The translations under genes and the position numbers were made by a program. DNA of 61,650 nucleotides, counting the filler, from Basidiobolus ranarum (lineage: Eukaryota), in NCBI GenBank assembly GCA_040143965.1. It is 10 parts of 10 records of this genome, joined end to end, with 100 filler letters (N's around TTAATTAATTAA, not from the genome) between each part and the next. Parts side by side here need not be neighbours in the genome. Positions count along the whole stretch, not along the records: positions 37,082 to 43,155 come from JASJQH010008295.1; 9 more parts are not named here. One strand, 5' to 3'. Below the pieces are notes generated by a model that saw only the letters and a list, made by a program, of their open reading frames with translations, searched no databases and was not told the DNA's origin. This document shows, piece after piece, positions 4,323 to 55,490 of the stretch; position 1 is the first letter of the stretch, and each line of letters starts with the position of its first letter.

Positions 4323-5399
4323 GCTTAAGTATAGCATTCTGAAAGTCTGGTATCATTGTTGAGTGACTATCTAACTCATGACTAGTTACTTCAGAATTCT
4401 GCATTAATTACAATACTGCTGTGCTATTGCTTGTAATGGCCTGAATAGCAATCTCATAGTTTTTACTTATGATTGCATACCAGTCATTATGGTGTTCTGC
4501 CTGAGATTCCCTTATTGTATTGATTTTTTCCCAATTGTCTATGCAGGGATGTTCAATAGTTGGCAGAGTAGGCATTTTGAAAGTTGATGATCTTGACAGT
4601 GTTTCTATTGAGCTTTACTAAACTATTAGTTTACCATGTAATTGCAGGATTGTAGTCTCTCCACCTGCATTATTCCTAGAAAGGAACACAACTGGTAAGT
4701 TGATTAATGCTATATTGATAATTCAGTTAGCTCTCACATGTTAATGCCTTCCAAAGCTGATATTGGATTGCTAGATGGCTTGTCAATTAAGTCTTATTGT
4801 GGTCATTAATTTTTGTGCTATAAAAGCAAGAGGCTTCATAGAACAAAAAGCGCAACAATGGTTATTGTCCAAAGTCACAAGCTGCACAAAGCCTGGTGTG
4901 TATCAATAGTGATAAATGCACCAAAACAACTTTAGTTTAGCCTACTGAGTACATTGGCTGTGCTTCACCTCAAAGTTCTGGTAACACTGCTGAGAGTCAA
5001 GATACCATGGAGTTATCACTATTATATGACCAGAAAGATATAGGTTGAAGTACAACTTTGGTCAACCCAGAAAGTCCAAAAAACTTTGATGACATGCTGC
5101 TAGATGTTGATATTGATTATTCTAGCACTGATAGCAATATATCCAAAGAAGATGAAGAAGACGATGGTTTTATTACAGATTCTTTGTTCTTGGCAAGCAT
5201 TAGTCCACTCATAACACTAACAGTAAAGGAAGCAGCTTTGATTATTGAGGAGTGTAGAGTTCAATCCAATCCTAGCAACCAGGCATTCATTGGTTTTCCT
5301 CCACTTTTACCATAGTCCATTAGCAACTGTTGCTTGTCACAGACCTGGTACAAGTGGAAAACACTATTCAATAGTATAACTTATAATCCTTCAGTAATT

Positions 5400-5480
5400 A
5401 AACTACCTACATGTCCAAAGATTGCTTGACTTTCACCAGTGATCTAAAAAATCTGAAGTCATGTACTGTTTGCATACAAT
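5400..5480 (+). mobile_element. Possible CACTA/EnSpm transposase Cys-motif remnant
   Basis: With one frameshift it reads CP(K)DCLTFTSDLKNLKSCTVC, resembling the CPxDC...L..CxxC motif N-terminal of CACTA transposases. An acidic ORF fragment (5058-5315) precedes it. Confidence 0.4.
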
Positions 5481-6089
5481 TCACAATCACTGAAGCAAGT
5501 AAACATTGTTCATATTAGCATACATGCTGTTGATTTTGATCTTAAAGTTTTGATGAAATCGCCCAAATATATAGCTCATTTGAACATACCATACTCCTAA
5601 GCTATACTATGATTCTAAGAAAATACATCTTAATTGAGGTTTTGTGAGAATATCAGCTAATATATACAGTTGGATACAGTTAAAACTATTACAAACATAT
5701 TGCCCATAGCTTAGCTGACAGAGTGGTGTTGAATATGTCGGAAGAAATTGCTATTGGCCTGAAAATTCCCTCCTGTACTATCAGGAGAAGTACAAGATAT
5801 CTTTGGGCCAATAGCTGTGCTAACTTAGTACTGACCACTTAGTCCATTAAATTTGAAGAATTCTTTATGTGTTGTTTCTCATGGAGCTGCAATTAATATA
5901 CTACATCTAAGAAGCATGCATTCATTAGTAAATGAAACAACACAAGTAGTTATGGCAAATATGGAATCACCTTCAATGTATAAAGAGTGATCTTGTAATC
6001 ACTCACCTAGATAATAAATTTCTAATGAATTTTAGGGTCAAAATAACAACTAAATTCTTGGATTATCTAGTAAAGACAAATTCCCTAAG

Positions 6090-6189
6090 NNNNNNNNNNN
6101 NNNNNNNNNNNNNNNNNNNNNNNNNNNNNNNNNTTAATTAATTAANNNNNNNNNNNNNNNNNNNNNNNNNNNNNNNNNNNNNNNNNNNN
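6090..6189. other. Artificial contig-joining spacer (N44-TTAATTAATTAA-N44); identical spacers at 12272-12371, 18454-18553, 24631-24730, 30808-30907, 36982-37081, 43156-43255, 49327-49426, 55491-55590
   Basis: Nine identical 100-bp spacers with stops in all six frames. Flanked segments are 6089, 6082, 6082, 6077, 6077, 6074, 6074, 6071, 6064 and 6060 bp. Confidence 0.99.
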
Positions 6190-9100
6190 ACCAATCGATG
6201 ATCTTGGAAACGCCATCCAAATCGTTGGTAGCAGTGGTATGAGATACACCTTTCTTGTACATGTTTTGAGTACCACCCAATTGCAAGTTCGACGAGTATA
6301 CCTCACGACCAAGAACCTTATTCAAAGCCGCAGCTCCGGTAAGGAGAATGGGTTGTCCTTCATTTTGAATGGTTCTTTGACCCAGACGAACCAAGTAAGC
6401 ACCAATACCAACGGATCTACAACTGACTAAGGTGATGGTGAAGATATCTTCGTAAGAACGAGATGTTTCTCCAGCAATTAGTCCGGATCCACGTAAATTC
6501 TCTACTCCCAAGCCATCAGTGGCTCCGATGACATCGGTGATCATGAAACGACGCTCTCCATCCTCCTCAATCTCCTCACCAAACACCACCTTTTGCCCAT
6601 CAGAGTTCAATTGTTGATACTCTTCTGGCGTAAGGTAAAGGTATTTGAATCCCTTGGAAACATCGTTGGAGTCGACCCAAGCAGTACGGAACATGGATTT
6701 AACCTCTTCAGCCAAACCAATACGAGCACCAGAGTTAGCAGAGAAGTAAATTCTAGGAATACCCAATTTACGAGCGAGTTCAGATGCCTTATAGAAAACC
6801 ATATCTTCGGCAACTCCAAATGATCCAATATTGAAGGTGATGTCATTAGCGATAGCGATCACATTTCTACCTTCGGGATATTCAGGGGTGAAGATTTCAA
6901 AGTTCCAAGCAACCATACCACAATTATTGGATCCAGGTGAACGGTAAAGTTCGTGAATTTCATTGTTATCATCTAACACGAGTTCTTTAGCGTTCAACAG
7001 TTCCTTGGGTGTACGAATGGATGGATCTTTAGCCGCTGCTTTAGCCCAAGCATTACGAATAGATTGTCGGAACAATTCTGGGAAATCGTACGCGTAGGCA
7101 GTGCCCAAAACATGAGCCTTGTAACGACGTGGTTGAAGCCATTCCTTGGTTTGGTACTTGTTGGAGATGGGTTGAAGGTGCATGGATCCTGGGGTACCCA
7201 AGGATTTATATATCAACTCACCGGAGCTATTCTTCACTTCAGTGTAAGTTTCCATTTTTAGGACGAATCCAGAGACATTACTAATGGTGAATCGAACTGG
7301 GATAGGGTTCTCCGATTTACTAGTTTGAACGTTGAATCGAATCTCGGCACCAGTAACTCGTTGTCTCCAAAGACGTTTACCATGACGATCGATGAATCCG
7401 GTCAATGCGGATTCTACTTGTTCGGGTTCAAGAACGAAAGTAGGAATGAAATTAATGAACAGATGATTACAATCGGAGTTCTTGTATGTGGAGCTGACAA
7501 TCTCAAGTGCGTCTAGAATATCAGTCAAAAGACGATCACTCTCTGAGACAAGATAATCCGCCGTTTGAAGGTTAGATCTAAGTCTACCAGGACGTACCAG
7601 AACTCGAACGAAGAATCTACAATCAGATAGATTCTCCTTACCAACTGCGTAGTAGATATGGATGTTACGATTCTCGCTGAAGCAAGGAGTGATATCGAAA
7701 TTCGTGAGTCGATTCAATTCCAATTGGTAAGCCAAGGCTGGTTCGATATGACGAATGGTTTGATCTTCTGCATAGTTATTCTTCTCACGGAAAGTGAAGA
7801 ATGCTGGACTAGTTCCCTCACGATTCAAGAGGAAAGTAACTCGACGGATTCCACGTGTACGAAGTTTCTCCCCATTGGATTGAAGGAATTCCTGGAGACG
7901 TTGGACCCATGTCTGATCGTGGAATTCTTCAGTGAGAGGAACATGTAAGGCCAAGTTCAGGATATTTCTGGGTGCAGTAGTGCTTGGATCAATCAATGTG
8001 AACACTGAGAGAACTCGGTCGAAATGGGCTTCAAGTTCTTCGAAAGTTTGGAATGCTCCCATGGCACCACGACGAATAGGCTCATCACCAACGGAGTTTT
8101 GCATGAAACTCATGTCGGAAATACTCAAAATTCTTTGGGATGATAAACTACGTCCTTGGGTACCAGTACGACTGGAATCATGAAGTTCGAAGTTCCATTC
8201 GAAGATGAATGGTGTTTGTTCGGTGTGATACACTGTATCATAAATATCATACGCATGGTAAGAACGTCTGCAATATACTTCTAACGCAGCGAGTGCGATC
8301 CAAATGTTCTCATGGTAGAAGAAATTCTGAAGAACATCGAACATGAAATAGTTGGTAACAATAAGATCCTCAATGGAGTCGTAACTTGGGGTACGATATT
8401 CCTCTTCGCCAACGCCATAAATGGTATCGGTGACAGCGCTCTTGAGAATACGCTCCATTTGCACCATACGTTCTTCATAGGATGGGAGTTGGGTTTGAAT
8501 AAGCATTTCTTTAGCAAGAAGCGCGACCTTTGCTGTGTGACGACTGCTAAGCTCAGAAAGATTCTTAAGAATCGCAGAATAACACTTATCCAAAGAACCT
8601 CCAACTCCATGGGGACGAATCTCATCAAGTAAAGCAAGAATCAAGTTATTCTTACCAGCTACCCTCCAGTGAGATTGAACTAGATTGACGACATAATCCA
8701 GATCATCCTTGTGTCCATCACGCAAGTTGAGAATGGTTTCTTCCTGACGTTTGGTATCATCATCGAAGAGCAACTCAGTATCGTAGTACTTGTTCAGTAA
8801 CCCACAAATGATACGTCTCTGGTAGGTGATGGGACCACCAATGTAGGAGGATACCACATCAATCACCGGACTGATAGATGCCTGGAAAGCAGCAACTTCA
8901 GAAGCCTTTAAGTTATTGCGACAATGGCTTTGTATAAGCTCGTTAAGCTTAGCAGCTGGGAAAGAATCGTGGTTCTTTTGTGCCTGATCCACTAAAAGAT
9001 GAAGATCATACTCCAATTTGGGAGGCATACGTCCGGACAAAGCGGAAATAACTTCATTGAATTGATGGAAAGCAATTTCCTCGTCTTTGAGATATTCCAA

Positions 9101-15044: not shown

Positions 15045-15674
15045 ATGCACTTCCTCAACGCTATCATTTTGACCCTTGGCGGTGCTCTTTTGAGCAGTGG
15101 GTGTGAGATGGACTGTAGAAACGGTATCAACAAAGCATTTGCCGATAACTACTCTCCCATTATTGCCAATCATATGGCCGTACTAGTTGAAGATATCAAG
15201 ACTACATTTGCAGTAGAGGTGCAGGATATTCCAGAGCTAGGAGGAGAGATCGAAAGAAGTGTTTCTGAACTTCAAACTACCATATTAAACAGGTTACCAA
15301 AAGCTGTTGACCGTCAAGTTTTCACAAAGTATCGTGGCCCTTGCCCCCAAGATATTGAAGGTTGTCCTAACTATAACTGCTCATCCCTTTGTGGCTCCCC
15401 CGGTTCTGTGATTTACTTTATTGATGATGCCCTTCAACTCGCTAATGCCGGTGTTGTCGGTCAAATTCAGAAAGATACTGAGCCAGGCAGAATATTCCAC
15501 AAATCGATTCGTAGCGCTATAACTAGTAAACTAGGTAATGCCCCTGTAAATGTCGAGTCCAAATTGAAGACCGTTTTACAAGATCTACATGATAGAGCCG
15601 TTGATATGTGTGACGAAGCATGCTATAGCAAGTGGACGTCTCAAATCATTGGGCTTCTCAAAACCTTTGACTAA
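15045..15674 (+). CDS. Secreted cysteine-rich protein of unknown function (209 aa)
   Basis: Intronless ORF with a hydrophobic signal peptide ending near SSG-C. Cys pattern CEMDC...CPQDIEGCPNYNCSSLCGSPGS...CDEAC. TATAAA at about 14976. Confidence 0.85.
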   Translation: MHFLNAIILTLGGALLSSGCEMDCRNGINKAFADNYSPIIANHMAVLVEDIKTTFAVEVQDIPELGGEIERSVSELQTTILNRLPKAVDRQVFTKYRGPCPQDIEGCPNYNCSSLCGSPGSVIYFIDDALQLANAGVVGQIQKDTEPGRIFHKSIRSAITSKLGNAPVNVESKLKTVLQDLHDRAVDMCDEACYSKWTSQIIGLLKTFD

Positions 15675-25186: not shown

Positions 25187-25729
25187 ATGTTCAAATATCT
25201 GAAAGGTACTGTGGATCTGTGCTTAAGATACACACTTTCTGCATCAAACTTTGATCTGATGGGATCTTCAGATGCAAATTGGGGAAGAGATATTGAAGAT
25301 ATGAGATCTACAACAGGAAATTTATTGCTTTTCTGCAATGGAGCTATCTATTGGAATTCAAAGAAACAACCTACCATAGCACTTTCAACAATGGAAGCAG
25401 AATACATGGCTGCCTGGGAAGCAACAATAGAAGCAATATGGTTAAGAAAGCTCTTAACAGACTTAGGTTATTCTCAAAATTCACCAACTACAATATTTCA
25501 AGATAATGAAAGTTGTATCAAATTAGCTAAAAATCTCATGTTTGATAATAGAAGCAAATATATAGATATTAGATTTCACTTCATTAGAGAAACTATGAAA
25601 GATAAGCTTATAGACTTAGCTTATTGTTCTACAGAAGATATGATTGCTGATATATTAACCAAACCATTAGCTAGAGAGAAATTTGAGAAGTTTAGACCTT
25701 CCTTAGGATTAGTTTATATGACTATTTAG
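25187..25729 (+). mobile_element. Ty1/copia pol 3' end (RT tail and RNase H)
   Basis: SDANWG...RSTTG...W.SKKQPTIALSTMEAEYMA...FQDNESCI...RSKYIDIRFHF...DMIADILTKPL; followed by polypurine tract AGAGGGAGAG (25744-25753). Confidence 0.95.
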
Positions 25730-30907: not shown

Positions 30908-33900
30908 TATAAAACCGGAGATCTGGCTCGCTATCTCCCAGATGGAGTGCTTGTATTCCTTGGTCGCAACGATCATCAGGTCAAAATTCGAGGCATTCGG
31001 ATTGAAGTAGGCGAGATTGAGGCACGCCTTATCGAACATCCCCAGGTACAGGAAGCAGCTGTGATAACTGTTGGTGAGGGAAATGACAAGCGCATGGTTG
31101 CCTATGTTGTGGCTGAGTCGGCCGAACATCTTCCTCACATACTACGTGCTTATCTCAAGACGAAGCTCCCCGAACACTTGGTACCAATCAACTATGTGTG
31201 CCTGGATGAACTTCCGTTGTCACCTAATGGTAAACTTGATCGCCGGGCCCTCCCTGCAATAGATGACAAAGCTCTTGCTCGCGAGGTATACGAAGCACCT
31301 GAAGGTGAGATTGAGATTGCCCTGGCAGGCATCTGGAGCGTACTGCTTCAAGTTGAACACATCAGTCGGAAAGACAATTTTTTCGCACTTGGTGGTCACT
31401 CACTACTGGCCGTACGTTTGATGAACCGTGTGGTGGACCTAGGAGCAGAATTACCATTGGCAATGATTTTTTCTTCTCCCAACCTCGCATCACTTGCTAC
31501 TACTGTTGAGCAGCATTTGAATCAAAAAAACACTGGACCCCGTGCCATTAAGTCAGTTTCACGCATGGGGGCTCTGGAACCGTCATTCACTCAGGAGAGT
31601 TTGTGGTTCGTATCCCAACTCAATGATAAGGCCAGCGTAACCTACAATATACCACTAGCAATGAAATTTCGCGGAGAACTGGACGGGATGGCCTGGCAGC
31701 AAGCATTGAATACCTTATTCGCACGCCACGAAGTTCTACGATCTGTGTTTCACAATATCGATGGTAGACCCAAGGTGGAACTACTGAATCCAGGATTAGG
31801 CATACCAATCAAATGGCACGATTTAAGGGGCGTTCCCAACGTTCGGGTACAAATTGAGAGTTTGACTGCGATGGAAATGTATTCGCCATTTGATCTAGCC
31901 CAAGGGCCACTGGTTCGAGCTCGTTTAATACAACTTTCAGGCAATGAATACATTTTTCTGTTCACCATATATCACCTTGTCTCGGATGGCTGGTCTGCTG
32001 GATTAATCACAAATGAATTGAATACTTTGTATGCAGCCTATCGTGCAGGTCAGCCTGATCCATTGCCACCACTTTTCATCCAATACTCCGACTATGCTGC
32101 CTGGCAAAAGAAATGGCTATCTGGTGAGAGACTACAGGATCAGAGTGCATACTGGCAGGAGGTACTCGCTAATGCACCCGCTCTGCTCGAACTGCCTACT
32201 GATCGGCCGCGACCTCCGCAGCAGTCCTTTGCTGGAGCCGTGTCGAAGATTCACCTTGATAAACAGATGACACTGGCACTCAGACGCCTGAGCCAAGAGT
32301 ATGGTGTAACCTTATTTGTAATCTTGTTGAGTGCATGGAGTGCCGTCTTGTCTCGTCTCTCTGGTCAAGACGATATTCTCATTGGTTCAATGAATGCAAA
32401 TCGCAACCATCATCAAGTCGAGGGATTGATCGGATTATTCGCCAATCTCCTTGTGTTGCGCATTGATCTTTCTGGGAAGCCGAGTGTATCCCAGCTGCTT
32501 GAACGCGTCTGGCATTGTACACTAAATGCTCAAAATAATCAAGACATTCCCTTTGAAGAGGTCGTTAGAGTCGTAAATCCTCCTCGCAAGCTGGATCATA
32601 CTCCGATATTTCAGGTCACATTTACTTGGCAAAATATCGATATGGGGACATGGGATTTGCCTGGTTTGGAAGTGACATCCGATTTTTCTAGCTTCAACAC
32701 AGCTTCATTCGATCTTGAACTGGATCTGCAAGAAGTTGATGATGAGATTATAGGGGAATTGTGTTTTGCGACCGCTCTGTTTGACCACCAGACGATTGAG
32801 CGATACATCAGTTACTTGAAAGCCATGTTGCAAGCAATGATGAATCATCCGAAGCAGTCTATTGCTACACTTGATATTATTTCTCCTGATGAGCGTAAGG
32901 TCTTGCTAGAATCACGAAATGAGACACATATGCTGTATCAAGAACATATGTGTATTCACCAGTTGTTCGAACAGCAAGTGATGCGTACTCCTAATGCCAC
33001 TGCTTTGGTATATGAGGGCGAGGTATGGAGCTACGAAGAACTGAATACGCGTGCAAACCGACTCGCACATCAGCTCATAAGTCTGGGCATCAAGCCAGAT
33101 ATGCGCATAGCAATCTGCGTGGAACGCTCACCAGCCATGGTGATGGGGTTGCTCTCAATCTTAAAGGCAGGTGGTGCTTATGTTCCATTAGACCCTACAT
33201 ACTCTACCAATCGCCTTTCTTACATGATAAACGACGCGGCCCCAATGGTGTTAATAGCGGATGAGGCTGGGCGTAGTGTATTGAGTAAAGAGGCTCTTAC
33301 TTCTGTGACAATACTTGATCTGAATACACAAATCACATTTCCTTGTACTAATCCGACCATTCCTGATTTGGCCTCGAGTCACCTTGGATGTGTAATATAC
33401 ACTTCGACCATCACTGGTAAGCCAAAAGGGGTGATGATGGAACATCGAAATATAACGAATCTCATCCAAGGCCAATGGAACTATCTTGAAGTCAACTCCT
33501 CCAGTCGGGTGTTGCAGCTTGCTTCGCTCAGTGTGGATATGAGTATCTTGGAAATATTCATCGCGATAGGCTATGGTGCCGGCTTGTATCTTCCTCCTGA
33601 TGCTGTGTACATTGATCGAAGTATGTTGTGGAATTACCTAGCAACCCATGAAATTACACATGTAGCCTTAACTCCATCGCTACTTCAAGATGGAAAGGAT
33701 TTACCTGTTTTGAGATCACCACTTACACTTATCACAAGGGACCAAGTGCTTAGTGCAGCATTACTTCGAACTCTGATCCCTCAAGGCATTGTTGTCACCC
33801 TCTACGGTCCAACAGAAATATCAGTTGGCGCCGTTACATGGCGTTGTCCACCAGATTTTGATGGTGAATTGGTTCCCATTGGCCGACCAATTGCAAACAC

Positions 33901-35311
33901 TCGTGTCTATTTGTTGGACAATTATGGCCAGCCAGTACCCTTGGGAGCAGTAGGTGAAATCTACATTGGAGGGGCCAGTGTCACCCGTGGCTATTTGAAC
34001 CTTCCTGAAATGACTGCTGAGTGCTTCCTCTTCGACCGGTTTAATGCAGATGAGGGATCTCAGATGTACAAAACTGGTGATCTGGCCCGCTACCTTCCAG
34101 ATGGCAATTTGGAGTTTGTCAGCAGTAGAGTTCGCCAAGTCAAGATTGAAGGGATGCAAGTAGAAGTAAATGAGATCGAAGCATGCCTTACCAAACACCC
34201 TCAGGTGCGAGAGGCTACTGTGATTCCACTTGGTGATGAAAGAACCTCCACTCATCATGTGTGTGAGATGCCACAAGGTAAAATTGAAACTGTGCTTGCA
34301 GGCATCTGGAGTGATCTGTTACATATAGAACATATTAATCGTCATGACAACTTTTTCTCGCTTGGGGGTGACTCACTACTCGCCATAATGATGGCCAGTC
34401 AGATTATGACTGCCTTAAACATCGAGGCTACGGTACGTATGGTATTTGAATCTCCTACTATTTCAGGATTGACACAGCGTATGCTCGAGTCAGAGAGTTC
34501 TCAAGATGATTCAGTGAATATTTTGATTCCCATCAAACCGACAGGTACTCGTCCACCTCTTTTCTGCATTCATACTTTGGTCGGCCATCCCTGGAGCGTG
34601 ATTGATCTGGCAAGATATCTAAACAAGGAGCAGTCTGTTCATTATCTTGAAGCCCGTTTACGCAGTAATGTTACTTCGATAGACGCGGCTTTTGATATCA
34701 TGGCGTTAGAGTGTGTGAATCAGATACTCCGTGTTCAGACAAAAGGACCTTACTATCTTCTTGGATGGTCCTACGGTGCCAGCATAGCTCACCGCATTGC
34801 TGTTCAACTTGAACTCCAAGGAATGAGAGTGGAGTTGCTCGCTTTACTGGATGGCTACCCCGACTACTCCGATCCAGACGAAAAATCCAAATCTGATATT
34901 TCATTCCTGGAGAAGCAACAAAGTTTTAAATATCCTAAACCCGAAAACACAGTAGAGATGAGTCAGGAAACTACTTGTTGCTCGTTCTTTAACTGCTTTA
35001 ACTCAGAAAACATAGCCATTGCCGGGAAATATTTTTGGGAGAAATACCGAGACTTGCTCAGCAAGGCCTCAAAGAAGGTACCCCATCGCATTTACAAGGG
35101 TGATCTACTGTTCGTTCATGCCACTGAAAAAAAAGATGGATCTGCTCCGCTACTCTCTCCTGATTTATGGAAGCCCTACGTACGTGGCAATATCGAGACT
35201 TACGGCATCTGCTGTCAACAAGAAGACATGATTAGATCGGAATTCACTTCGCAAATTGCTCAGATTTTGGGACGTAAACTCGACCAACTACATCAGGCCC
35301 AACAAGATTGA
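30908..35311 (+). CDS. Intronless bacterial-type non-ribosomal peptide synthetase, 5'-truncated: [A partial]-T-C-A(degenerate)-T-TE
   Basis: YKTGDLARY, GRNDHQVKIRG, PLSPNGKLDRR; T1 GGHSLL (31391-31402); C domain YHLVSDGWS (31970-31990); A motifs SYEELNTRANRLAH, KAGGAYVPLDP, YGPTE; T2 GGDSLL (34364-34375); TE GWSYG (34763-34777). Confidence 0.97.
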   Translation, partial: YKTGDLARYLPDGVLVFLGRNDHQVKIRGIRIEVGEIEARLIEHPQVQEAAVITVGEGNDKRMVAYVVAESAEHLPHILRAYLKTKLPEHLVPINYVCLDELPLSPNGKLDRRALPAIDDKALAREVYEAPEGEIEIALAGIWSVLLQVEHISRKDNFFALGGHSLLAVRLMNRVVDLGAELPLAMIFSSPNLASLATTVEQHLNQKNTGPRAIKSVSRMGALEPSFTQESLWFVSQLNDKASVTYNIPLAMKFRGELDGMAWQQALNTLFARHEVLRSVFHNIDGRPKVELLNPGLGIPIKWHDLRGVPNVRVQIESLTAMEMYSPFDLAQGPLVRARLIQLSGNEYIFLFTIYHLVSDGWSAGLITNELNTLYAAYRAGQPDPLPPLFIQYSDYAAWQKKWLSGERLQDQSAYWQEVLANAPALLELPTDRPRPPQQSFAGAVSKIHLDKQMTLALRRLSQEYGVTLFVILLSAWSAVLSRLSGQDDILIGSMNANRNHHQVEGLIGLFANLLVLRIDLSGKPSVSQLLERVWHCTLNAQNNQDIPFEEVVRVVNPPRKLDHTPIFQVTFTWQNIDMGTWDLPGLEVTSDFSSFNTASFDLELDLQEVDDEIIGELCFATALFDHQTIERYISYLKAMLQAMMNHPKQSIATLDIISPDERKVLLESRNETHMLYQEHMCIHQLFEQQVMRTPNATALVYEGEVWSYEELNTRANRLAHQLISLGIKPDMRIAICVERSPAMVMGLLSILKAGGAYVPLDPTYSTNRLSYMINDAAPMVLIADEAGRSVLSKEALTSVTILDLNTQITFPCTNPTIPDLASSHLGCVIYTSTITGKPKGVMMEHRNITNLIQGQWNYLEVNSSSRVLQLASLSVDMSILEIFIAIGYGAGLYLPPDAVYIDRSMLWNYLATHEITHVALTPSLLQDGKDLPVLRSPLTLITRDQVLSAALLRTLIPQGIVVTLYGPTEISVGAVTWRCPPDFDGELVPIGRPIANTRVYLLDNYGQPVPLGAVGEIYIGGASVTRGYLNLPEMTAECFLFDRFNADEGSQMYKTGDLARYLPDGNLEFVSSRVRQVKIEGMQVEVNEIEACLTKHPQVREATVIPLGDERTSTHHVCEMPQGKIETVLAGIWSDLLHIEHINRHDNFFSLGGDSLLAIMMASQIMTALNIEATVRMVFESPTISGLTQRMLESESSQDDSVNILIPIKPTGTRPPLFCIHTLVGHPWSVIDLARYLNKEQSVHYLEARLRSNVTSIDAAFDIMALECVNQILRVQTKGPYYLLGWSYGASIAHRIAVQLELQGMRVELLALLDGYPDYSDPDEKSKSDISFLEKQQSFKYPKPENTVEMSQETTCCSFFNCFNSENIAIAGKYFWEKYRDLLSKASKKVPHRIYKGDLLFVHATEKKDGSAPLLSPDLWKPYVRGNIETYGICCQQEDMIRSEFTSQIAQILGRKLDQLHQAQQD

Positions 35312-37470
35312 GCACACTGGTGGTGTTTGATACGGTGACTGCATTCCAATAGGAGAGGTGTGTGGACATTTTCGTTGCAATGTAAATAATATATCCAATG
35401 ATCTCTATAGAGTTCGTCACTAGTTCGAAAATGAATACTGCATATGAAATAAAGTGAAATCATACTCTATTAGCAATCTGACACAGCAATGTAGAACATT
35501 GGATTCTGGATGATAGCCATCTCCATCATAGGATACCGACATCCCTTATCCAACATACCACTTGTTGTTGAGTGCAACACCAGTACTTTAAGAGGTGAAT
35601 TAGAATGAATCGAAGCCCGAACTTGATTTGTAGCAACCAGCAAATCCTAAATCCAACCCATACTCTGTGTATGCCGGAATGCGACTTGAATTCATATTGC
35701 GTTGCTCAGGTTATTCACTAGTGATACAAATTGTCTCATGGTTCACACGACTATTCAAGCCAAAATAAGCATATGAGTGATGAGAAGGTGTGAGCAACAA
35801 TCAGAGTATGGATGGAGAATGTGACTGACAACTTAGCAGCAAATCTAGCCCTTCGAATCCATATAGTATAAATCATCCTGATCGCACAAATCCTTGCTTG
35901 TGCACTGACTTGTGGTACACTTCTTGAAACCACAACGATATGCTCGACTCTGACGATCCATCTCGTTCGTATCCGCGAAACTCTTGCGCAAACATTTCCC
36001 TCCACTCATAATTGGAATTACCGTCACACTAATTGGAGCACATATGATTGGATCTGGACCGAAAACCCGGTGGAAATTGTATGGACTGCCTTAACGTCAA
36101 TACTCCCAGCACTAATTACTTGACTTATTGGAATTCACAGTCTTAAATGTGATTATTCCTTTCATCTTCAGACCCAGTATTTATGGAAGTTGGACCTTAT
36201 ATTCTGAGCTCACATTGCTCATTATTTTTGCCACTCTCTATTATGAGAGAAAATCACATGGCTGGACCGATTTCGACCAACAAGTTTTGGAGTAAATATA
36301 TTCTTGCATGTGAGCTCTATGCTTACTAACCATCTTCTTTATGTGATATAGGTTTTGTTAAGAGATTGTTTGATTGATTTCTCTGCAAACATCAAAATAA
36401 AGCAATAGATTAATTTTCAATCAGCCTGAATATATTGATATACCTAATTATAAAACTCAGGATTCTGAACGGTGAGCTTAAGCCAACAAAAGCAATGTTG
36501 TGCACCAACATACAAAACCACATAACTTATGTCACCATTAACTTGCATTAGTACCTGTTTAGTTAATCACTGTTGCTGATAATTCACCTGACCATATCCA
36601 GTGACTCTATGATGTGATTTGTCCTATGGCTATCTCTCTTTTCTCTAATCCCTATTTTAAGATCACAAGATCTGGTATGTGATCAATGCCTAATAATATA
36701 TCTTTTGTATCACAATTTGTAATCTATTTGCTTGATTCTTACTAGTTCTGTTGTCTATGAGAAAGTATATATAAAGTTACCTAAACCTTTTGATTTAGTA
36801 CGTGCCTCAATAAAACCTAGTTTCTTACTATCTCCCTTGTGTATCTTTATGTTATTGCATTCCTTTTCTAATATGCTGTATTAGGCTAGTATACCTAGCA
36901 GTGAAGGAACACCAAGCCTAGCTGTCTAGCAAACTAACTCTCTACCATTACATGATCAGGATCTGCACTACTAATATCTCCNNNNNNNNNNNNNNNNNNN
37001 NNNNNNNNNNNNNNNNNNNNNNNNNTTAATTAATTAANNNNNNNNNNNNNNNNNNNNNNNNNNNNNNNNNNNNNNNNNNNNAAGGCACCAGTATTGCACT
37101 CCCAAACGGGGTGGATCAGCCAATTACTGTTCTTCCACTCTTTCTGGACCTGGTATATGCAGCAAATAAACCGGCCAGCTTCAACCAAATAGGGTAGATT
37201 GATCCTGATTGACACTCCCTCTCAATCTGGAATTTCAGGATAGGCATATCGTGTTGCCTGAACACTGGCCTCCATTTGTGGAGCCAACTGATCGGATGCG
37301 GATAAGAGCTTAATGGCCAACGTCCAACGTCCAACGTCGGCTGTGACAATCCCGAAATTGATATAGATGACCTGTCTGATGAGTTAAATTACAGGGAGCT
37401 ATGGTTTAGGTTTTCCCAGCTTGATATAAATATGATATGGCCTTGGGCGCCATCGGTATAAGCTGCAACG

Positions 37471-38688
37471 ATGTGGTGCTCTTTAGTCTTCATTTTAGCT
37501 GCGCTTTCCGTGAGCGTCAATGCCGATGCCATCGACATGTGGGTTAATCCCAGTCAAAACAAGAAGGTCGTCGGCTTCTACACAAGCTTAGAGGTTCCAC
37601 ATGGATACGATCCGCCATCAACATACTGGTGTATAGCTGGCTGGGGCCTTGGGTACTTTGGGATTCAAGTGCTTGTGGATGGATCACACGCATTGATCAT
37701 GTCCGAGTGGAACGAGGGTCATAAATCCCCACAAATCGACCTTTCCATTCCTCATGGGGAGATCTCACAGTGCGAGGAGAGTTGCCCGGAGGGCGCCATG
37801 GCCCATGTAATCATTCCCGGGCACGCTTGGGTAACGGGAGTCAAGTACAACTTCAAGATTGAAATGCAGTTCAACGGGACCAATCAGAATATTCACAGCT
37901 ACTTCTTTACCAATAATCATTGGGAGCTGATAGCACAGATTACCGCACCGAAGTATGGTCGACAGGGCTTCCAAACTATATACCAATTTCTTGAGAATTG
38001 GCTGTCTAATTATGACCAAGAGAGAAGAGGAATCTATTCTGACCAGCACTTCAAGTTCGAGGGCGATGAAAAGTGGTATCCCGCTGCCAGTATCTCTCCG
38101 TTTAAAAACGCGAACAAAGTTCACCCCGACTACTACGCTGAAGCAGTGCCTTTGCAACAGGGAAATGGCATGATGCTCAAGCTGGATGGAACTCAGCCCG
38201 GAAGCAAGAAGGGTTGGTTCTATTATCCAACCTTGCACACCAATGCAACCAATATGCTCCCACCCATCAATAACCCGCCACCATTGCACGGCAAGCACAC
38301 CGTCACTGTTGTGGATACGTATGTTGCTTACAGGCGGTATACCGACTCACCGGTAACTACAACCACGACGGAAAAACATTGGCAATCTGTCACACTCAAT
38401 CCTACGGTTACTCAGATCGAGACTTTGCGCGACACTTTTGTGCAGACCGAGACCGTGCACAGAACAAGAACAGAGCTGACAACGGTCACGCCATCTGCAG
38501 ATATTAAGGATGAAGTTAAAACAATAACCGAAACACTTACTCAAGAGGATACCACCACAGTGGTAGATCAACCCACCACTGTCTCAACCGTTACTCTCCC
38601 GAGAATGGAGAATCAGAGTCTCACGGTTTTTGAGACTGTGCAGCCTACAGTAACAGCTCCAGTTATCACGGTTACCTCCGTTTTGTAG
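37471..38688 (+). CDS. Secreted DUF3472-like protein with Thr-rich C-terminal tail, paralog 1 (405 aa)
   Basis: Signal peptide (VNA-D). FYTSLEVPHGYDP.STYW...GYFGIQ...SEW...W.TGVKY.F...WELIAQ...FLENW...R.GIYSDQ...W matches my recollection of bacterial DUF3472. Thr/Val-rich tail, no introns, TATAAA at 37425-37430. The ORF is certain; the family call is less so. Confidence 0.8.
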   Translation: MWCSLVFILAALSVSVNADAIDMWVNPSQNKKVVGFYTSLEVPHGYDPPSTYWCIAGWGLGYFGIQVLVDGSHALIMSEWNEGHKSPQIDLSIPHGEISQCEESCPEGAMAHVIIPGHAWVTGVKYNFKIEMQFNGTNQNIHSYFFTNNHWELIAQITAPKYGRQGFQTIYQFLENWLSNYDQERRGIYSDQHFKFEGDEKWYPAASISPFKNANKVHPDYYAEAVPLQQGNGMMLKLDGTQPGSKKGWFYYPTLHTNATNMLPPINNPPPLHGKHTVTVVDTYVAYRRYTDSPVTTTTTEKHWQSVTLNPTVTQIETLRDTFVQTETVHRTRTELTTVTPSADIKDEVKTITETLTQEDTTTVVDQPTTVSTVTLPRMENQSLTVFETVQPTVTAPVITVTSVL

Positions 38689-40583
38689 GATATTTATTGA
38701 TTGATTGTAACAAACACCAATCAAGCTATTTCATAACTAAACAGACTTGCTTCGGTTTTTGTATTTCAACTGATCAGAATTCCACTCTGCATGTAGAGTT
38801 CTTAATGTCCTTATTAGTGTTTTGTCAGGTGGTGATCTTTCCAATGAAGTTATTTGCTAGTGGTATTCGCACAAGTTCGGATTTTTGATTTGAACCGTTT
38901 GTAATGGGATGCTCTTTGCCAGCATTATATATTATTTTAATAGTATACAAATTCAGCTTATAAATGAGTGGGTTCACCCGCATCTATATTTACAAAAATA
39001 TATTCATTGTTTATGTTTTAATAGCGGCACTCAGTTATTTGTATTTTACACTTATTAACATTAGAGCAAACAGCAATCTACTTTCCCTAAAGATCATTCC
39101 TATGTTGGTTTAGCATCATTATATACTCACTGCTATTATCAATCATTGCTCAGCGGTGGGCTCTTCTTGCTGTTGCAGAGCAATGTTCTAAATTAACTTT
39201 CATTACTATACTGGAATTTGAAAGTCTGAAAAGTGGCTCCCTGGGCTCTAGTAGAGATTTGTAATGAATACTATACAAATGCCAAAGTATGACAGATATT
39301 TGCTGTGAACATCTAGTATATTACGGTAGAGCCGAGAGCGATATGCCATTGAAGAGCATGGCAACTTTACAAGTATTTCACTCAAGTATCATCAATCAAG
39401 GATGATACCTTTATGTGTACAAAGTTTAGGATCGATTGAAAAATTTTGAATGCTAATAGTATTCCAGGCACCCGACATTTGGTGAGAAATATTCCGTGTA
39501 AGACCCAACAGTATATTTGGTCAAGATATAAGCCACACATTGAGTTGTACTTAAATGGCTAAGCCAATGTGAATATTCAGGCTCTGACTCAAGAATTTGA
39601 ACAACTACTGCATCCTCATCAGTAGTTTACACCCCAATTGAGCCCATTTCATGTAAAAAGTTATATCTCTACACCCTTCTAAGCGTGCACAGTTCGCGGT
39701 CTTTTGGACAACTTATCACATCGATAAAGATAAACCAATAAAAGCCTATGGCAAAATATGTACGTTATCAAATTAGGGTAAATGTTTAGATGCTAACTGA
39801 AGAGGTACAGCACATGAAACATTGATCTTCCTGTGACGGTTCTAACATATAGCATTTACTATTTTGATGGATCCGTATAGACTCCAAGTTTTTTATGTGT
39901 GGTTCTGGGCCTTTTACTCGCGTCAGGCTTTTAAGGCTAATCAATCATTCAAGATATTTACATCCTTACTTCGGCTAAAGTTGCGTGTGCGCACTTCAAG
40001 CTCTGTGCAGGATCGGCATTTCTTAATGCCTATTATGACCTTCCAGATACTTACCTTATAAGAAAACTGATAGCCTTTCTTCGCACATAGTCACTGTCTA
40101 AATGTATCTTCCTAATTAGGTACCACATGTCCAATCAGGGAGTACTTACTTAGGGTTAGGAGTTCGCTTTATTCTTAAATTATCATTTATCTATACATTT
40201 ATATCATTGTGGTCCCTTGCCGAGCCTATACCAAAAAAAGGAGATGATACCAAGTGAAGACTTCGCAGAATTAGAAGCTACTTATCTACCTCCATGGGAA
40301 GCAATTCAAATTAAAGTGTAATATATCCCCAGTTTCTCGATATAGATTCTAATCTGCAATACTTGGCTCATTCGTATTTGATGTTCCAAACGATTACCAG
40401 CTGTATTTAGATTCGAATTGTTCAGTTGTAATAGCCGGAGTAAGGCTTATCAAGTCCATTCTATAGCCACAAGTAAGGCCAACATCCTCTAGTATTTCCG
40501 ATCATTAGATCACAAGGAAATACTATTTTCCACAGTAGCATAAATATATATTACTTGTAGTGTAATCGAAGTGTCCCTGTACT

Positions 40584-41804
40584 ATGTGGCTCTCACTTCT
40601 TATTGTATTGCTGGCATGCTGCGTTGGCATCAAAGCTGACGCCATAGACATGTGGGTGAACCACAGTCAGAATAAGAAGATTACTGGTTTCTATACAAGT
40701 CTAGAAGTTCCTGACGGCTACGACCCAGTAACGACGTACTGGTGCGTAAGTGCTTGGTGGCTTGGATATTTTGGTATTCAAAAGCCCAACCCATCGTCAT
40801 TTACCCTGATCATGGCCGAGTGGAACGACAAACACAAGTCTCCACAAATTGATCGTTCGCTGAATCGGGCGAGTATTTCCCAATGTGAAGAGAATTGTCC
40901 TGAGGGTGCCGTTGCTCACGTGATCGTTCTAGGGGACAATTGGAAGACTGGAGTGAAGTATGACTTCAAAGTCGAAGTAGATTTCAATGGAACGAATGAA
41001 ATCTTTTCTAGTTACTTCTTCAAGAACGACCATTGGGAATTGGTTGGGGAGATTACTGCACCAAAATACGGAGCTCAAGGTTTTGGATACATCTATCAGT
41101 TCCTCGAGAATTGGGAGACCAATGACAATCAGGAGCGAAGAGGAATCTATTCCAACCAGCATTTCAGGTTTGAAGGAGATGACAGTTGGTATCCAGCCAC
41201 AAGTATCTCTCCATTTAACAATGCGAACGTTGTACATCCTCACTACTATGCTGATGCTGTACCCTTAGAGAAGAAAAATGGCGTATTGCTCAAACTGGAC
41301 GGAACAGGTCCGCCAGATAAAAACGGATGGATGTATTATCCACTGTTGCATGTGAACGCAAGTAATATGGTGCCACCTCAAGCTAGTGTGCCTCCAATGC
41401 ATGGTAAGCATACTGCCACTGTTGTGGAATCATATGTTGTGTACGAACGGTACACTATGTCGCCAATCACTACGACAACTACCGAGAAACATTGGAAAAC
41501 TGATTCAATCGCACCGACTGTCACTAGGTTTGAGACATTATATGATACTACTGTCCAAACCGAGATAGTCCACAATACAATAACCAAGGTGAAAACAAGC
41601 TTCCTGCCCGCCGAGACGATGTCGGAAATTACGCACACAGATACAGTCACCGAAGAAACAACCATCACCGAAAAACTTGGCCATCGCACTGTTACAAACA
41701 CCACTGTTTCTCATTTGTTTACGGATACGCAAGATGTCACGGTCATTCAGACTGTACAACCCACTATAACTACTTCTGCTGTTACCAGTACAAAGTACAT
41801 GTAG
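40584..41804 (+). CDS. Secreted DUF3472-like protein with Thr-rich C-terminal tail, paralog 2 (406 aa)
   Basis: Colinear over its full length with 37471-38688 (ADAIDMWVN.SQNKK..GFYTSLEVP.GYDP, CEE.CPEGA, IYQFLENW, ERRGIYS, HGKHT, PITTTTTEKHW). Confidence 0.8.
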   Translation: MWLSLLIVLLACCVGIKADAIDMWVNHSQNKKITGFYTSLEVPDGYDPVTTYWCVSAWWLGYFGIQKPNPSSFTLIMAEWNDKHKSPQIDRSLNRASISQCEENCPEGAVAHVIVLGDNWKTGVKYDFKVEVDFNGTNEIFSSYFFKNDHWELVGEITAPKYGAQGFGYIYQFLENWETNDNQERRGIYSNQHFRFEGDDSWYPATSISPFNNANVVHPHYYADAVPLEKKNGVLLKLDGTGPPDKNGWMYYPLLHVNASNMVPPQASVPPMHGKHTATVVESYVVYERYTMSPITTTTTEKHWKTDSIAPTVTRFETLYDTTVQTEIVHNTITKVKTSFLPAETMSEITHTDTVTEETTITEKLGHRTVTNTTVSHLFTDTQDVTVIQTVQPTITTSAVTSTKYM

Positions 41805-42763: not shown

Positions 42764-42794
42764 GGACTGGTAGCTCAGTGGTTAGAGCACCTTG
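42764..42794 (+). pseudogene. tRNA-like 5' half (acceptor strand, D arm, 5' anticodon stem), cut off by an LTR
   Basis: GGACTGG-TA-GCTC-AGTGGTTA-GAGC-A-CCTTG has canonical spacing, a perfect D stem and an A-box. No anticodon or T arm is present. Confidence 0.6.
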
Positions 42795-43155
42795 TGTCAT
42801 GATTCTGATCTTGGCATACTGATCCACTGCATATGGAACTCTTCTATTATTAGATTATGACATCATATCTACTGTGCCATCCCTTCTCGGCAATCTGGTG
42901 TCAGTTCATCCAGATTACCTTATATGGAAGTCATGTTCTTTGGAACATTCCATGAAACCTGACCAATCATGTCATCCCACACATAGTGTATTTCCGCCAA
43001 GACCTTCCATGGAAGGTCACCTGATCATCCTTACATCATCCTTACATCATTCTTGCATCATCCCTCTTTGTATTGGTCCTTGTAGTCCCTAACACCCCAA
43101 CTCTCGAACTTGCCACAGTATATTCCCTATTCAGTATATTATGTTTCACCTTGCA
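42795..43155 (+). mobile_element. Gypsy-associated LTR family C, 5' part, truncated by contig end
   Basis: TGTCATGATTCTGATC start; homologous to the reverse complement of 50960-51166. 43081-43155 matches the reverse complement of 49252-49326 at 74/75 bases. Confidence 0.85.
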
Positions 43156-54616: not shown

Positions 54617-55490
54617 TGATAAAAGTGTTTAGGGGATTTGGAAGTGTTTTGGACAAGATTTGGATTTGTGAATTAGACACTTAAGTTTTAATCAATTGAA
54701 TATGTCCTATTTATAGCTTACTATGAAATAGAACTATGAGATGTACTAAGATCATAACAAGCATGCCTGTTGAGCATGGGTGAAAATTTGAGGTGATTTG
54801 GAGAAGTTTTGAGAAAATAGTGAAAATTGGTAAAAGTGATCTAATTGATAATTCTGTCAATTAGAGCAATAAACACACATTTTTGAATGACAGAATTGAG
54901 CGCTAAGTGTTCAGAATAGGAATACACTAACTACTAAATAATAGGTTCCTATTTACCTGATTTCAACACTCCCACCCCACTGATTATTTTGCATTTCTTT
55001 CAAACTTCACTTATATCTTAATAATTCAAATTTTGCTTTAGTTAAAGGTTTGGTAAAGATATTGGCTATCATTTCTTCAGTAGGGCAATAGAGCAGTTCA
55101 ATTATATGATTCTCTATTGCTTCTCCAACAAAATGATGCCTAATATCTATATATTCCATAACTAGATCTACAGTTCCTCTCAAATTCCTGAATATTTGTT
55201 GTACTGCAGTTTTGTGCTCAGATCCTGGATTTTTGAGATATTGGCTAACAGTTCTCTCTGCCACAGCAATGTCTGGATGTGTTACAACCATTGTATACAT
55301 TAAACTACTCTCCATGGATTGATAAGGGAACTCGTGGCTTTGATTTGAGTCATTATGGGCCAAATTGGATGTAGTTTTAATTAATTTCACATTGGGATCC
55401 ATTGGTGTTGATACAGGCTTGCTATTCTCCATGTTGAAGCATTTTAGGATGTCTAGGATGTATCTAGACTGATTCAGCATGATTTTCTGA
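54617..55490 (-). mobile_element. Family B copia 3' end: RT/RNase H remnant (55007-55490), PPT, 3' LTR 54617-54968
   Basis: MLNQSRYILDILKCFNMENSKPVSTPMD, nearly identical to 46412-46500; GGGGTGGGAG PPT; TGTTGAAATC...TTTTATCA LTR of 352 bp. Confidence 0.9.

What the first reader, a model, noticed from the sequence alone, without database searches (positions are those of the whole stretch)
37471..41804. Tandem pair of secreted DUF3472-like proteins: probable bacterial gene domesticated with a Thr-rich stalk
Seen: two intronless, same-strand paralogs (405 and 406 aa) 1.9 kb apart. Each has a signal peptide, an aromatic-rich ~230-aa beta-type domain, a conserved CEExC pair, shared N-glycosylation sequons (NGT; NAT/NAS), a Pro linker and a ~130-aa Thr/Val-rich tail. 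Both frames are intact despite extensive third-position divergence. From memory, the motif order (FY..V.VP.G.DP..SY, GYFG.Q, S.W, W..G..Y.F, W.LIA, FLEN., R...Y..Q) matches DUF3472, a mainly bacterial family of unknown function common in Bacteroidetes. Inference: a horizontally acquired, duplicated, eukaryote-adapted secreted enzyme or lectin acting on host or microbial glycans, with an acidic residue such as the E of FLENW possibly catalytic. This is the best candidate for an undescribed system here.
Basis: partly seen in the sequence, partly recalled or inferred. Interest (0 to 1): 0.76.

Follow-up and report, generated by a model that had tools for sequence, protein, structure and literature searches.

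The report
Fungal relatives of a mucin-cutting enzyme
Two neighbouring genes of a gut-dwelling fungus (Basidiobolus) encode secreted relatives of a recently described bacterial enzyme that cuts mucus proteins; they keep its two key acidic residues but have a rebuilt active-site loop and an extra threonine-rich tail, so the fungus may have its own set of mucus-cutting enzymes.

Summary
In detail: two intact, intronless, secreted-type paralogs, 60% identical, both DUF3472. The family is no longer of unknown function. HC7, the Bacillus cereus di-glutamate mucinase, is a DUF3472 protein (profile E 2e-33; fold Z 25). HC7 Glu200 maps to Glu175 (FLENW) and the second conserved Glu to Glu107 in both genes. 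Best reading: secreted glycopeptidases that cut O-glycosylated animal proteins. Activity is not shown.

The pair belongs to a Basidiobolus family with 12 complete ORFs in this genome. Its subclade has replaced a Phe and a Gly that are almost invariant elsewhere (180 and 181 of 181 rows) with a Cys-x3-Cys loop, so the substrate may differ.

Bacterial ancestry is plausible but old. Mucorales fungi have the family, no named bacterium falls inside the fungal group, and Basidiobolus members already stand in a published tree. No sialidase, fucosidase, GH27 or M60 gene was found. The scan noted the DUF3472-HC7 link before on other DNA. I could not read the HC7 paper.

The parts
37471..38688 (+). Gene A (P0001), 405 aa, secreted-type DUF3472 protein
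   Evidence: ORF; Pfam PF11958 130.1 bits; 77% identical to B. meristosporus ORX90729
37471..37524 (+). Gene A predicted signal peptide (aa 1-18)
   Evidence: Hydrophobic stretch, KD11 2.68; cleavage site inferred
37525..38256 (+). Gene A HC7-like beta-sandwich domain (aa 19-262)
   Evidence: AF2 pLDDT mostly above 85; Z 28.7 to 4qhx, 24.9 to HC7 8pmu
37771..37785 (+). Gene A Cys101-x3-Cys105 loop, replacing the family F-G-x-E-G-T/S-G loop start
   Evidence: Profile columns; disulfide inferred
37789..37791 (+). Gene A Glu107, equivalent to HC7 Glu131; putative second catalytic residue
   Evidence: Profile column 239, Glu in 130 of 137 rows; role inferred
37993..37995 (+). Gene A Glu175, equivalent to HC7 Glu200
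   Evidence: Profile column 307, Glu in 128 of 137 rows; Ala in 8pn3/8pn5
38257..38289 (+). Gene A Pro-rich linker (aa 263-273)
   Evidence: Sequence; pLDDT below 50
38290..38685 (+). Gene A Thr/Val-rich tail (aa 274-405), no GPI-like end
   Evidence: Thr 28.8%, Val 15.9%, KD15 max 1.13 at the C-terminus; no confident fold
38689..40583 (.). 1,895-bp intergenic spacer
   Evidence: No ORF of 120 aa or more; no long repeat apart from the paralogs themselves
40584..41804 (+). Gene B (P0002), 406 aa, paralog of gene A
   Evidence: ORF; Pfam PF11958 124.4 bits; 60% identical to A
40584..40637 (+). Gene B predicted signal peptide (aa 1-18)
   Evidence: KD11 3.2; cleavage site inferred
40884..40898 (+). 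Gene B Cys101-x3-Cys105 loop
40902..40904 (+). Gene B Glu107 (HC7 Glu131 equivalent)
41106..41108 (+). Gene B Glu175 (HC7 Glu200 equivalent)
41403..41801 (+). Gene B Thr/Val-rich tail (aa 274-406)
   Evidence: Thr 29.3%, Val 11.3%; 50% identical to tail A, dN/dS 0.30

Best explanation
Both genes encode secreted di-glutamate glycopeptidases related to the mucinase HC7. The protein enters the secretory pathway, is N-glycosylated (N135, N258) and folds an HC7-type beta-sandwich. An aromatic-lined cleft (Tyr52, Trp53, Trp58, Tyr62, Gln66, Trp80, Trp177) binds a Thr/Ser-rich peptide that carries short O-glycans, and Glu107 with Glu175 hydrolyse the peptide bond. Likely substrates are mucins the fungus meets in its life cycle: host gut mucus already trimmed by bacteria, or mucin-type proteins of the arthropods that carry it. 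The Cys loop probably shifts the preferred glycopeptide motif. The tail is probably an O-mannosylated extension that spaces, stabilises or retains the enzyme. Shown: ORFs, family, fold, residue equivalence, purifying selection, gene-family context. Inferred: expression, secretion, catalysis, substrate, role of the loop and of the tail.
For: Profile of 137 homologs hits HC7 at E 2e-33, and the PDB names HC7 a 'DUF3472 domain-containing protein'. The model matches HC7 at Z 24.9-25.7, rmsd 2.5-2.7 A over 232-233 residues; the next family (neprosin) is at Z 14. HC7 Glu200, mutated to Ala in the glycopeptide complexes, is Glu175 here; HC7 Glu131, Tyr68, Trp69, Trp74, Tyr83, Gln87, Trp105 and Trp202 all have identical counterparts in both genes. 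HC7 cleaves mucins with Tn and T O-glycans (PMC13003899, sections 3 and 5). Both Glu are kept in every Cys-loop row that covers them, while separate Basidiobolus paralogs have lost one or both. The domain is under strong purifying selection. Homologs are fused to CBM32-type (F5/8), M60-peptidase, NPCBM and chitin-binding modules, as secreted catalytic domains are. Basidiobolus lives in herptile guts and travels on insects (PMC10964425 passages).
Against: No activity or expression data. HC7 is distant: 18% identity in the structural alignment, and gene A alone does not find it by phmmer at E up to 10. The Phe at HC7 128 (180 of 181 non-Basidiobolus rows) and the Gly at 134 (181 of 181) are both replaced in this subclade. 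The proteins have no recognised carbohydrate-binding module. No match was found in the own genome for sialidase BNR_2, GH29, GH27 or M60 (fragmented assembly, so absence is not shown), so the fungus shows no kit of its own for trimming vertebrate mucin. Mucorales (Absidia and relatives, largely soil fungi by general knowledge) keep the family with both Glu, so gut mucus cannot be the only substrate of fungal members.
Confidence: 0.55

Rival explanations
1. Active glutamic peptidases with a changed substrate: O-mannosylated Thr-rich proteins of the fungus itself or of other fungi, or plain Pro/Thr-rich proteins, with no need for GalNAc.
For: The loop beside Glu107 is rebuilt on a long branch (0.75-0.95 changes per column, 100/100). 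Mucorales have the family. The genome has protein O-mannosyltransferase genes. The fold is shared with neprosin and eqolisin at Z 11-14. Mucin-trimming glycosidases were not found.
Against: The aromatic cleft residues match HC7 one for one. The one characterised member I could trace needs O-GalNAc glycans. An enzyme that cuts O-mannosylated Thr runs would threaten its own tail.
Confidence: 0.25
2. Non-catalytic or weakly catalytic mucin-binding adhesins: the domain holds glycopeptides and the tail ties the protein to the cell or spore surface.
For: Two near-invariant loop residues are lost and a bulky Met/Val replaces a Gly next to Glu107. The tail is conserved (dN/dS 0.2-0.4) and is found almost only on this subclade. 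Basidiobolus has other DUF3472 paralogs that have lost the Glu residues.
Against: Both Glu are kept in the pair and its subclade while synonymous sites are saturated. There is no GPI-like C-terminus.
Confidence: 0.12
3. Glycoside hydrolases or lyases acting on a polysaccharide, as the first reader and the 4qhw entry title suggest.
For: Structural matches to GH16 glucanases at Z 12.5-12.7 and to alginate lyases at Z about 9; 4qhw is titled 'putative two-domain sugar hydrolase'; chitin-binding fusions in B. meristosporus.
Against: No glycoside hydrolase family matches at E up to 1. HC7 scores twice as high and is a sequence homolog. The 4qhw title is a prediction.
Confidence: 0.05

Closest known systems
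HC7, di-glutamate mucinase of Bacillus cereus K8 (PDB 8PMU, 8PN3, 8PN5; Narimatsu et al. 2024, Nat Catal 7:386, not held here; described in PMC13003899)
   Same: DUF3472 domain, same fold (Z 25, 233 residues), Glu131/Glu200 and the cleft residues Tyr68, Trp69, Trp74, Tyr83, Gln87, Trp105, Trp202 all kept.
   Different: 18% identity; F-G-G-E-G-T-G loop replaced by C-x3-C-P-E-G-A-M/V; no CBM5 or other recognised module; fungal signal peptide, N-glycan sequons and a Thr/Val tail; activity untested.
BACCAC_02064 of Bacteroides caccae (PDB 4QHW/4QHX)
   Same: Best structural match (Z 28.7, rmsd 2.2 A, 242 residues) and the only significant direct sequence hit in the PDB (E 1.9e-7).
   Different: Has an N-terminal extra domain that the fungal proteins lack; uncharacterised; canonical loop.
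Basidiobolus meristosporus DUF3472 proteins ORX90729 (P0003), ORX88821 (P0004) and relatives
   Same: 73-77% identical in the domain, same loop, same tail.
   Different: Annotated as hypothetical; tandem order not seen (they lie on different contigs).
Mucorales DUF3472 proteins (Absidia, Chlamydoabsidia, Cunninghamella, Hesseltinella)
   Same: Single-domain, signal-peptide-like N-terminus, both Glu.
   Different: About 250 aa, canonical loop, no tail.
Glutamic peptidases neprosin and eqolisin (scytalido-/aspergilloglutamic peptidase)
   Same: Related beta-sandwich, Z 11-14; acid-residue catalysis (established knowledge).
   Different: 6-13% identity, no Pfam match; not known to need O-glycans.
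DUF3472 proteins of centipede venoms (PMC7864903) and of Drosophila Vesanto virus (10.1101/2020.10.16.342956)
   Same: Same domain, taken up by eukaryotes or their viruses and duplicated.
   Different: Separate lineages; reported as of unknown function; many centipede ones carry DUF5077.

Membership tests
Pfam DUF3472 (PF11958) | Score above the gathering cut-off over most of the model | tested here: met
   130.1 and 124.4 bits against 24.8; model positions 8-241 and 13-242 of 269
Pfam DUF3472 (PF11958) | Fold of the solved member 4QHW | tested here: met
   Z 28.7, rmsd 2.2 A, 242 aligned
HC7-type di-glutamate mucinases | HC7 catalytic-domain fold and sequence homology | tested here: met
   Z 24.9-25.7; profile E 2e-33
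HC7-type di-glutamate mucinases | Glu at HC7 position 200 (mutated in the substrate complexes) | tested here: met
   Glu175 in both genes
HC7-type di-glutamate mucinases | Second conserved Glu (HC7 131; its catalytic role is my inference from conservation) | tested here: met
   Glu107 in both genes; Glu in 177 of 181 non-Basidiobolus rows
HC7-type di-glutamate mucinases | Near-invariant F-G-x-E-G-T/S-G loop (not known to be required for activity) | tested here: not met
   Phe (180 of 181) and last Gly (181 of 181) replaced by Ser/Asn and Met/Val, with Cys-x3-Cys. Hence filed as a variant homolog, not as a canonical HC7-type mucinase
HC7-type di-glutamate mucinases | Two Glu facing each other in an open cleft | not testable with these tools
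   Model coordinates were not returned
HC7-type di-glutamate mucinases | Cleaves mucins with Tn/T O-glycans | not testable with these tools
   Needs an assay; HC7 behaviour from PMC13003899
HC7-type di-glutamate mucinases | Export from the cell | tested here: inconclusive
   Hydrophobic N-terminus only; no predictor, no proteome
Neprosin / eqolisin glutamic peptidases | Family profile match | tested here: not met
   No Pfam hit other than DUF3472 at E up to 1; fold similarity only
GH16 and related glycoside hydrolases | Family profile match | tested here: not met
   No hit at E up to 1; Z 12.7 at 4-10% identity
Recent bacterium-to-Basidiobolus transfer (as in PMC7466969) | Fungal copies nested inside a bacterial donor group, no other fungal homologs | tested here: not met
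   Basidiobolus, Mucorales and 5 unnamed rows form one side of a 100/98 branch without any named bacterium; Mucorales homologs named
Ancient bacterial origin | Family mostly bacterial, patchy in eukaryotes, intronless here | tested here: inconclusive
GPI-anchored fungal wall proteins with Ser/Thr stalk | Hydrophobic C-terminal anchor signal | tested here: not met
   KD15 max 1.13 and 0.70 in the last 30 residues; gene B ends in polar residues; heuristic only

The most novel reading that the evidence does not exclude
Basidiobolus has expanded an anciently acquired di-glutamate mucinase into a secreted toolkit of about ten enzyme types. The disulfide-loop subclade, to which this pair belongs, has a new glycopeptide specificity and a new Thr/Val module for retention in mucus. 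It would be a fungal mucinase system that feeds on mucin trimmed by gut bacteria or on arthropod mucins, and the same activity would explain DUF3472 in centipede venoms and in an insect virus.
Probability: 0.3. Interest if true: 0.75.

Novelty: new variant of a known kind. Interest (0 to 1): 0.5.

Why it matters
It gives a testable function to a gene family listed as unknown in Basidiobolus and its relatives. If active, these enzymes would show how a gut fungus can use or cross mucus without its own mucin glycosidases, and they may bear on the opportunistic infections the genus causes (PMC9391592 passage). Mucinases with new cleavage rules are also wanted as tools for glycoproteomics (PMC13345888 passage), and the rebuilt loop is a natural variant to test. 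The limit: the enzyme class is known, and the HC7 paper, which I could not read, may already list fungal members.

Tried and rejected
Contamination: rejected. The closest proteins are from another Basidiobolus species, the family is spread over many contigs of this genome, and GC3 (0.55, 0.46) is near that of other window genes (0.38-0.45).
Recent duplication or gene conversion: rejected; domain synonymous sites are saturated and gene A pairs with a B. meristosporus gene. The place of gene B relative to P0004 is unresolved.
A single fungal origin: Basidiobolus plus Mucorales-group rows are one side of a branch in the best tree, but at 62/14, so neither shown nor rejected.
Tail as a known domain: no Pfam or NCBIfam hit; folded alone without alignment, pLDDT 33.5; with alignment about 45-55, predicted as strands; ESM Atlas best feature score 0.81, no structure match above the naming bar. 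A test of tail self-association could not be run (tool unavailable).
Direct phmmer of two single Basidiobolus domains did not reach HC7; only the profile did.
NCBIfam gave one weak hit far below cut-off (2-methylfumaryl-CoA isomerase, 13.8 bits against 725): chance.
Literature: 'DUF3472' is in 5 papers, 4 listed, none on fungi or mucinases by title; passages of 2 read. 'di-glutamate mucin' with 'Narimatsu' is in 5 papers; passages of all 5 read, none links the family to fungi in what I saw. 'Basidiobolus' with 'mucin': 17 papers, 16 listed, none relevant by title. A last mixed search listed 15 of 435 papers, none with 'mucinase'. Supplements of PMC7466969 were not available, so I do not know whether these genes are among its transfer candidates. 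The supplement of PMC8778642 has no DUF3472.
Full report
OBSERVATION. The two ORFs are as described: 37471-38688 (405 aa, gene A) and 40584-41804 (406 aa, gene B), same strand, 1,895 bp apart, on one gap-free contig. They are 60% identical. Each has a hydrophobic N-terminus, Cys101 and Cys105, sequons at N135 and N258, a Pro-rich linker and a tail with 29% Thr and no GPI-like end. Nei-Gojobori counts give saturated synonymous sites in the domain (pS 0.79, dN 0.22) and dN/dS 0.30 in the tail, 0.21 in its first half. Both genes are old and maintained by selection.

ORGANISM AND FAMILY. The closest proteins are from Basidiobolus meristosporus, 77% and 73%. Several paralogs in this genome match proteins that the databases name B. 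ranarum. Both genes are DUF3472 (130.1 and 124.4 bits, cut-off 24.8). The genome gives 21 DUF3472 matches, 20 over the cut-off. I counted 12 complete ORFs with a hydrophobic N-terminus, one more gene split over two overlapping contigs, and partial copies at contig ends; the 12 fall to 9 types if copies over 90% identical in DNA are merged, since these may be alleles. Four matches have stops inside and were left out.

WHAT THE DOMAIN IS. AlphaFold2 with 137 sequences gave an all-beta domain with 194 residues at pLDDT 90 or more. Against 48,161 representative chains the best matches were 4qhx (Z 28.7, rmsd 2.2 A, 242 residues) and HC7 (Z 24.9, 2.7 A, 233), then neprosin (13.9) and GH16 glucanases (12.5-12.7) (same order). 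A profile of the alignment hits HC7 at E 2e-33, and the PDB names it a DUF3472 domain-containing protein. [quoted passage not shown] The primary paper (Narimatsu et al. 2024) is not held; I recall that its abstract mentions eukaryotic members, which I could not check. PMC13003899 lists MEROPS G9 among mucinase families; that this is the HC7 family is my inference.

ACTIVE SITE. Through the shared profile, HC7 Glu200, which is Ala in the glycopeptide complexes 8pn3 and 8pn5, is Glu175 of FLENW in both genes. HC7 Glu131 is Glu107. These columns hold Glu in 128 and 130 of 137 rows and in 80 of 80 GTDB loci (the first Glu was part of one search pattern, so only the second is a free test). HC7 Tyr68, Trp69, Trp74, Tyr83, Gln87, Trp105 and Trp202 have identical counterparts. 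That Glu131 is the second catalytic residue, and that these aromatics line the cleft, is inference. Against a canonical reading: in 181 non-Basidiobolus rows the loop Phe is present in 180 and the last Gly of F-G-x-E-G-T/S-G in 181, and both are replaced here (Ser/Asn104, Met/Val110), with Cys-x3-Cys just upstream. This change marks an 11-row Basidiobolus subclade on a long branch (100/100). Every row of it that covers the sites keeps both Glu, whereas other Basidiobolus paralogs have lost one or both. I read this as changed specificity rather than lost activity, but it is not shown.

THE TAIL. A search of the own genome gave 5 matches: A, B, the paralog on C7354, a partial near-copy of it on C3792 and a weak hit (E 7.9e-4) in a stop-interrupted Thr/Val-rich frame. 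In the trees it sits on a 7-row group (97/96). It has fixed positions (GKHT, a Thr run, a Trp) and little Ser or Pro, unlike a simple linker. No confident fold or family was found. The genome has O-mannosyltransferase genes; fungi add O-mannose rather than O-GalNAc (established knowledge), so a GalNAc-dependent enzyme would spare its own tail. Stalk, retention module and self-associating strands all remain open.

ORIGIN. In IQ-TREE runs on subsets of 76 and 71 rows (chosen from 214 domain sequences, 79 GTDB domains and 11 later hits), Basidiobolus forms one group (99/94 with 20 rows; 93/91, not starred, with 18 rows). With Mucorales-group rows and 5 unnamed single-domain rows it lies on one side of a 100/98 branch that holds no named bacterium. 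A FastTree run on all 214 rows agrees (33 rows, 97). Named Mucorales homologs come from Absidia, Chlamydoabsidia, Cunninghamella and Hesseltinella. Fungal monophyly is neither shown nor rejected (62/14). HC7 itself could not be put in the tree. Gene A pairs with B. meristosporus P0003 (100/98), so the duplication predates that split. The supplementary tree of PMC7864903 (label text of parts 11 and 12 read, branch drawing not seen) lists three B. meristosporus proteins next to Absidia, Mucor, Parasitella and Hesseltinella, and also ciliates, springtails, copepods, molluscs and centipedes; its section 10 concludes that the family moved from bacteria to animals several times. PMC9391592 (passages and Table S6 read) lists a secreted DUF3472 orthogroup as an indicator of Entomophthoromycotina (A 0.99, B 0.5). 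PMC7466969 (abstract, section 17) documents bacterial transfers into Basidiobolus in general. So bacterial ancestry is plausible, but old and without an identified donor.

HOW IT MOST LIKELY WORKS. Secreted, N-glycosylated enzyme; cleft binds a Thr/Ser-rich peptide with short O-glycans; Glu107 and Glu175 hydrolyse the backbone (0.55). Basidiobolus lives in herptile guts and is carried on insects that the host eats (PMC10964425 passages). No sialidase BNR_2, GH29, GH27 or M60 match was found in the genome, while controls rang in 1-4 of 14 genomes (absence not shown in a 13,754-contig assembly). That fits either mucin pre-trimmed by bacteria, as for HC7, or arthropod mucins, whose O-glycans are mostly short (my knowledge, no paper read; one search found none to the point). 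Chitin-binding fusions in B. meristosporus, a Vesanto virus member and a DUF3472 entry among secreted-gene families of a nematode-digesting Chryseobacterium (PMC6394051 passage) point towards invertebrate matrices. Rivals: peptidase of changed, GalNAc-independent specificity (0.25); non-catalytic adhesin (0.12); glycoside hydrolase (0.05).

NOVELTY. The domain family, its fold and one enzymatic function are known, and Basidiobolus members are in print as proteins of unknown function. In the searches I ran no listed paper ties the fungal family to mucinase activity, but most subscription papers, including the primary one, are not held. Two earlier notes of this scan made the DUF3472-HC7 link on other genomes; I had reached it before the look-up, and none covers this sequence. 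What is new here is the fungal expansion read as a mucinase family, the rebuilt loop and the tail. Verdict: new variant of a known kind, interest 0.5.

Other papers touched: 10.1101/053173 (passages), 10.1101/2021.12.02.471044 (passages), PMC12518865, PMC13523644, PMC13345888, PMC13765066 (passages), PMC8778642 (supplement search only).

Noticed in passing
window 31094-35311 (+): NRPS piece (carrier, condensation, adenylation, carrier, thioesterase) on a different contig from the pair. Bacterial-type NRPS genes in Basidiobolus are known (PMC7466969); the origin of this one was not tested.
   Followed up: partly
G000:C9122 (L123) and G000:C8420 (L124): Head-to-head DUF3472 pairs, 393 and 405 bp apart: one Cys-loop type, one with Asp in place of the Glu200 equivalent. 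Possible shared promoter for an enzyme and a binder.
   Followed up: partly
P0037, P0157-P0159 (B. meristosporus): DUF3472 proteins named chitin-binding type-1; the domain was confirmed by Pfam for P0037. Suggests a chitin-associated substrate such as an arthropod gut lining or the fungal wall.
   Followed up: partly
P0022, P0052, P0162-P0164 (B. meristosporus): Secreted-type paralogs; the two scored (P0022, P0162) have lost both Glu, and four near-copies have close accession numbers on one contig: likely pseudoenzymes kept as binders or decoys.
   Followed up: partly
L041 (G000:C7354, about 4700-6500): A Thr/Val-rich frame with a signal-like start and several stops, just downstream of a tail-bearing DUF3472 paralog; weakly similar to the tail.
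   Followed up: no
BFVD A0A7D4W429: The Vesanto virus DUF3472 protein is the top viral fold match (E 1.7e-5). A mucinase role would parallel insect-virus enhancins (recalled). Its Glu residues were not checked.
   Followed up: no
P0025, P0046, P0054, P0099: DUF3472 proteins fused to M60, other metallopeptidase-like, BSP or GH16 domains.
   Followed up: no
window about 42765-42800 (+): A stretch that looks like the 5' part of a tRNA; ARAGORN finds no tRNA gene in the window. Possibly a relic.
   Followed up: partly
window 37425-37432 and about 40540-40550: TATA-like elements 35-45 bases before each ATG; not tested against chance.
   Followed up: no
window 15045-15674 (-): 209-aa ORF with a signal-like start and several Cys, no Pfam match at E up to 1 (strand to be checked, the scan was run on the + reference as listed).
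   Followed up: no
window 25187-25729 and 55007-55480: Fragments that look like copia-type retrotransposon RT/RNase H (recalled motifs, not scanned).
   Followed up: no
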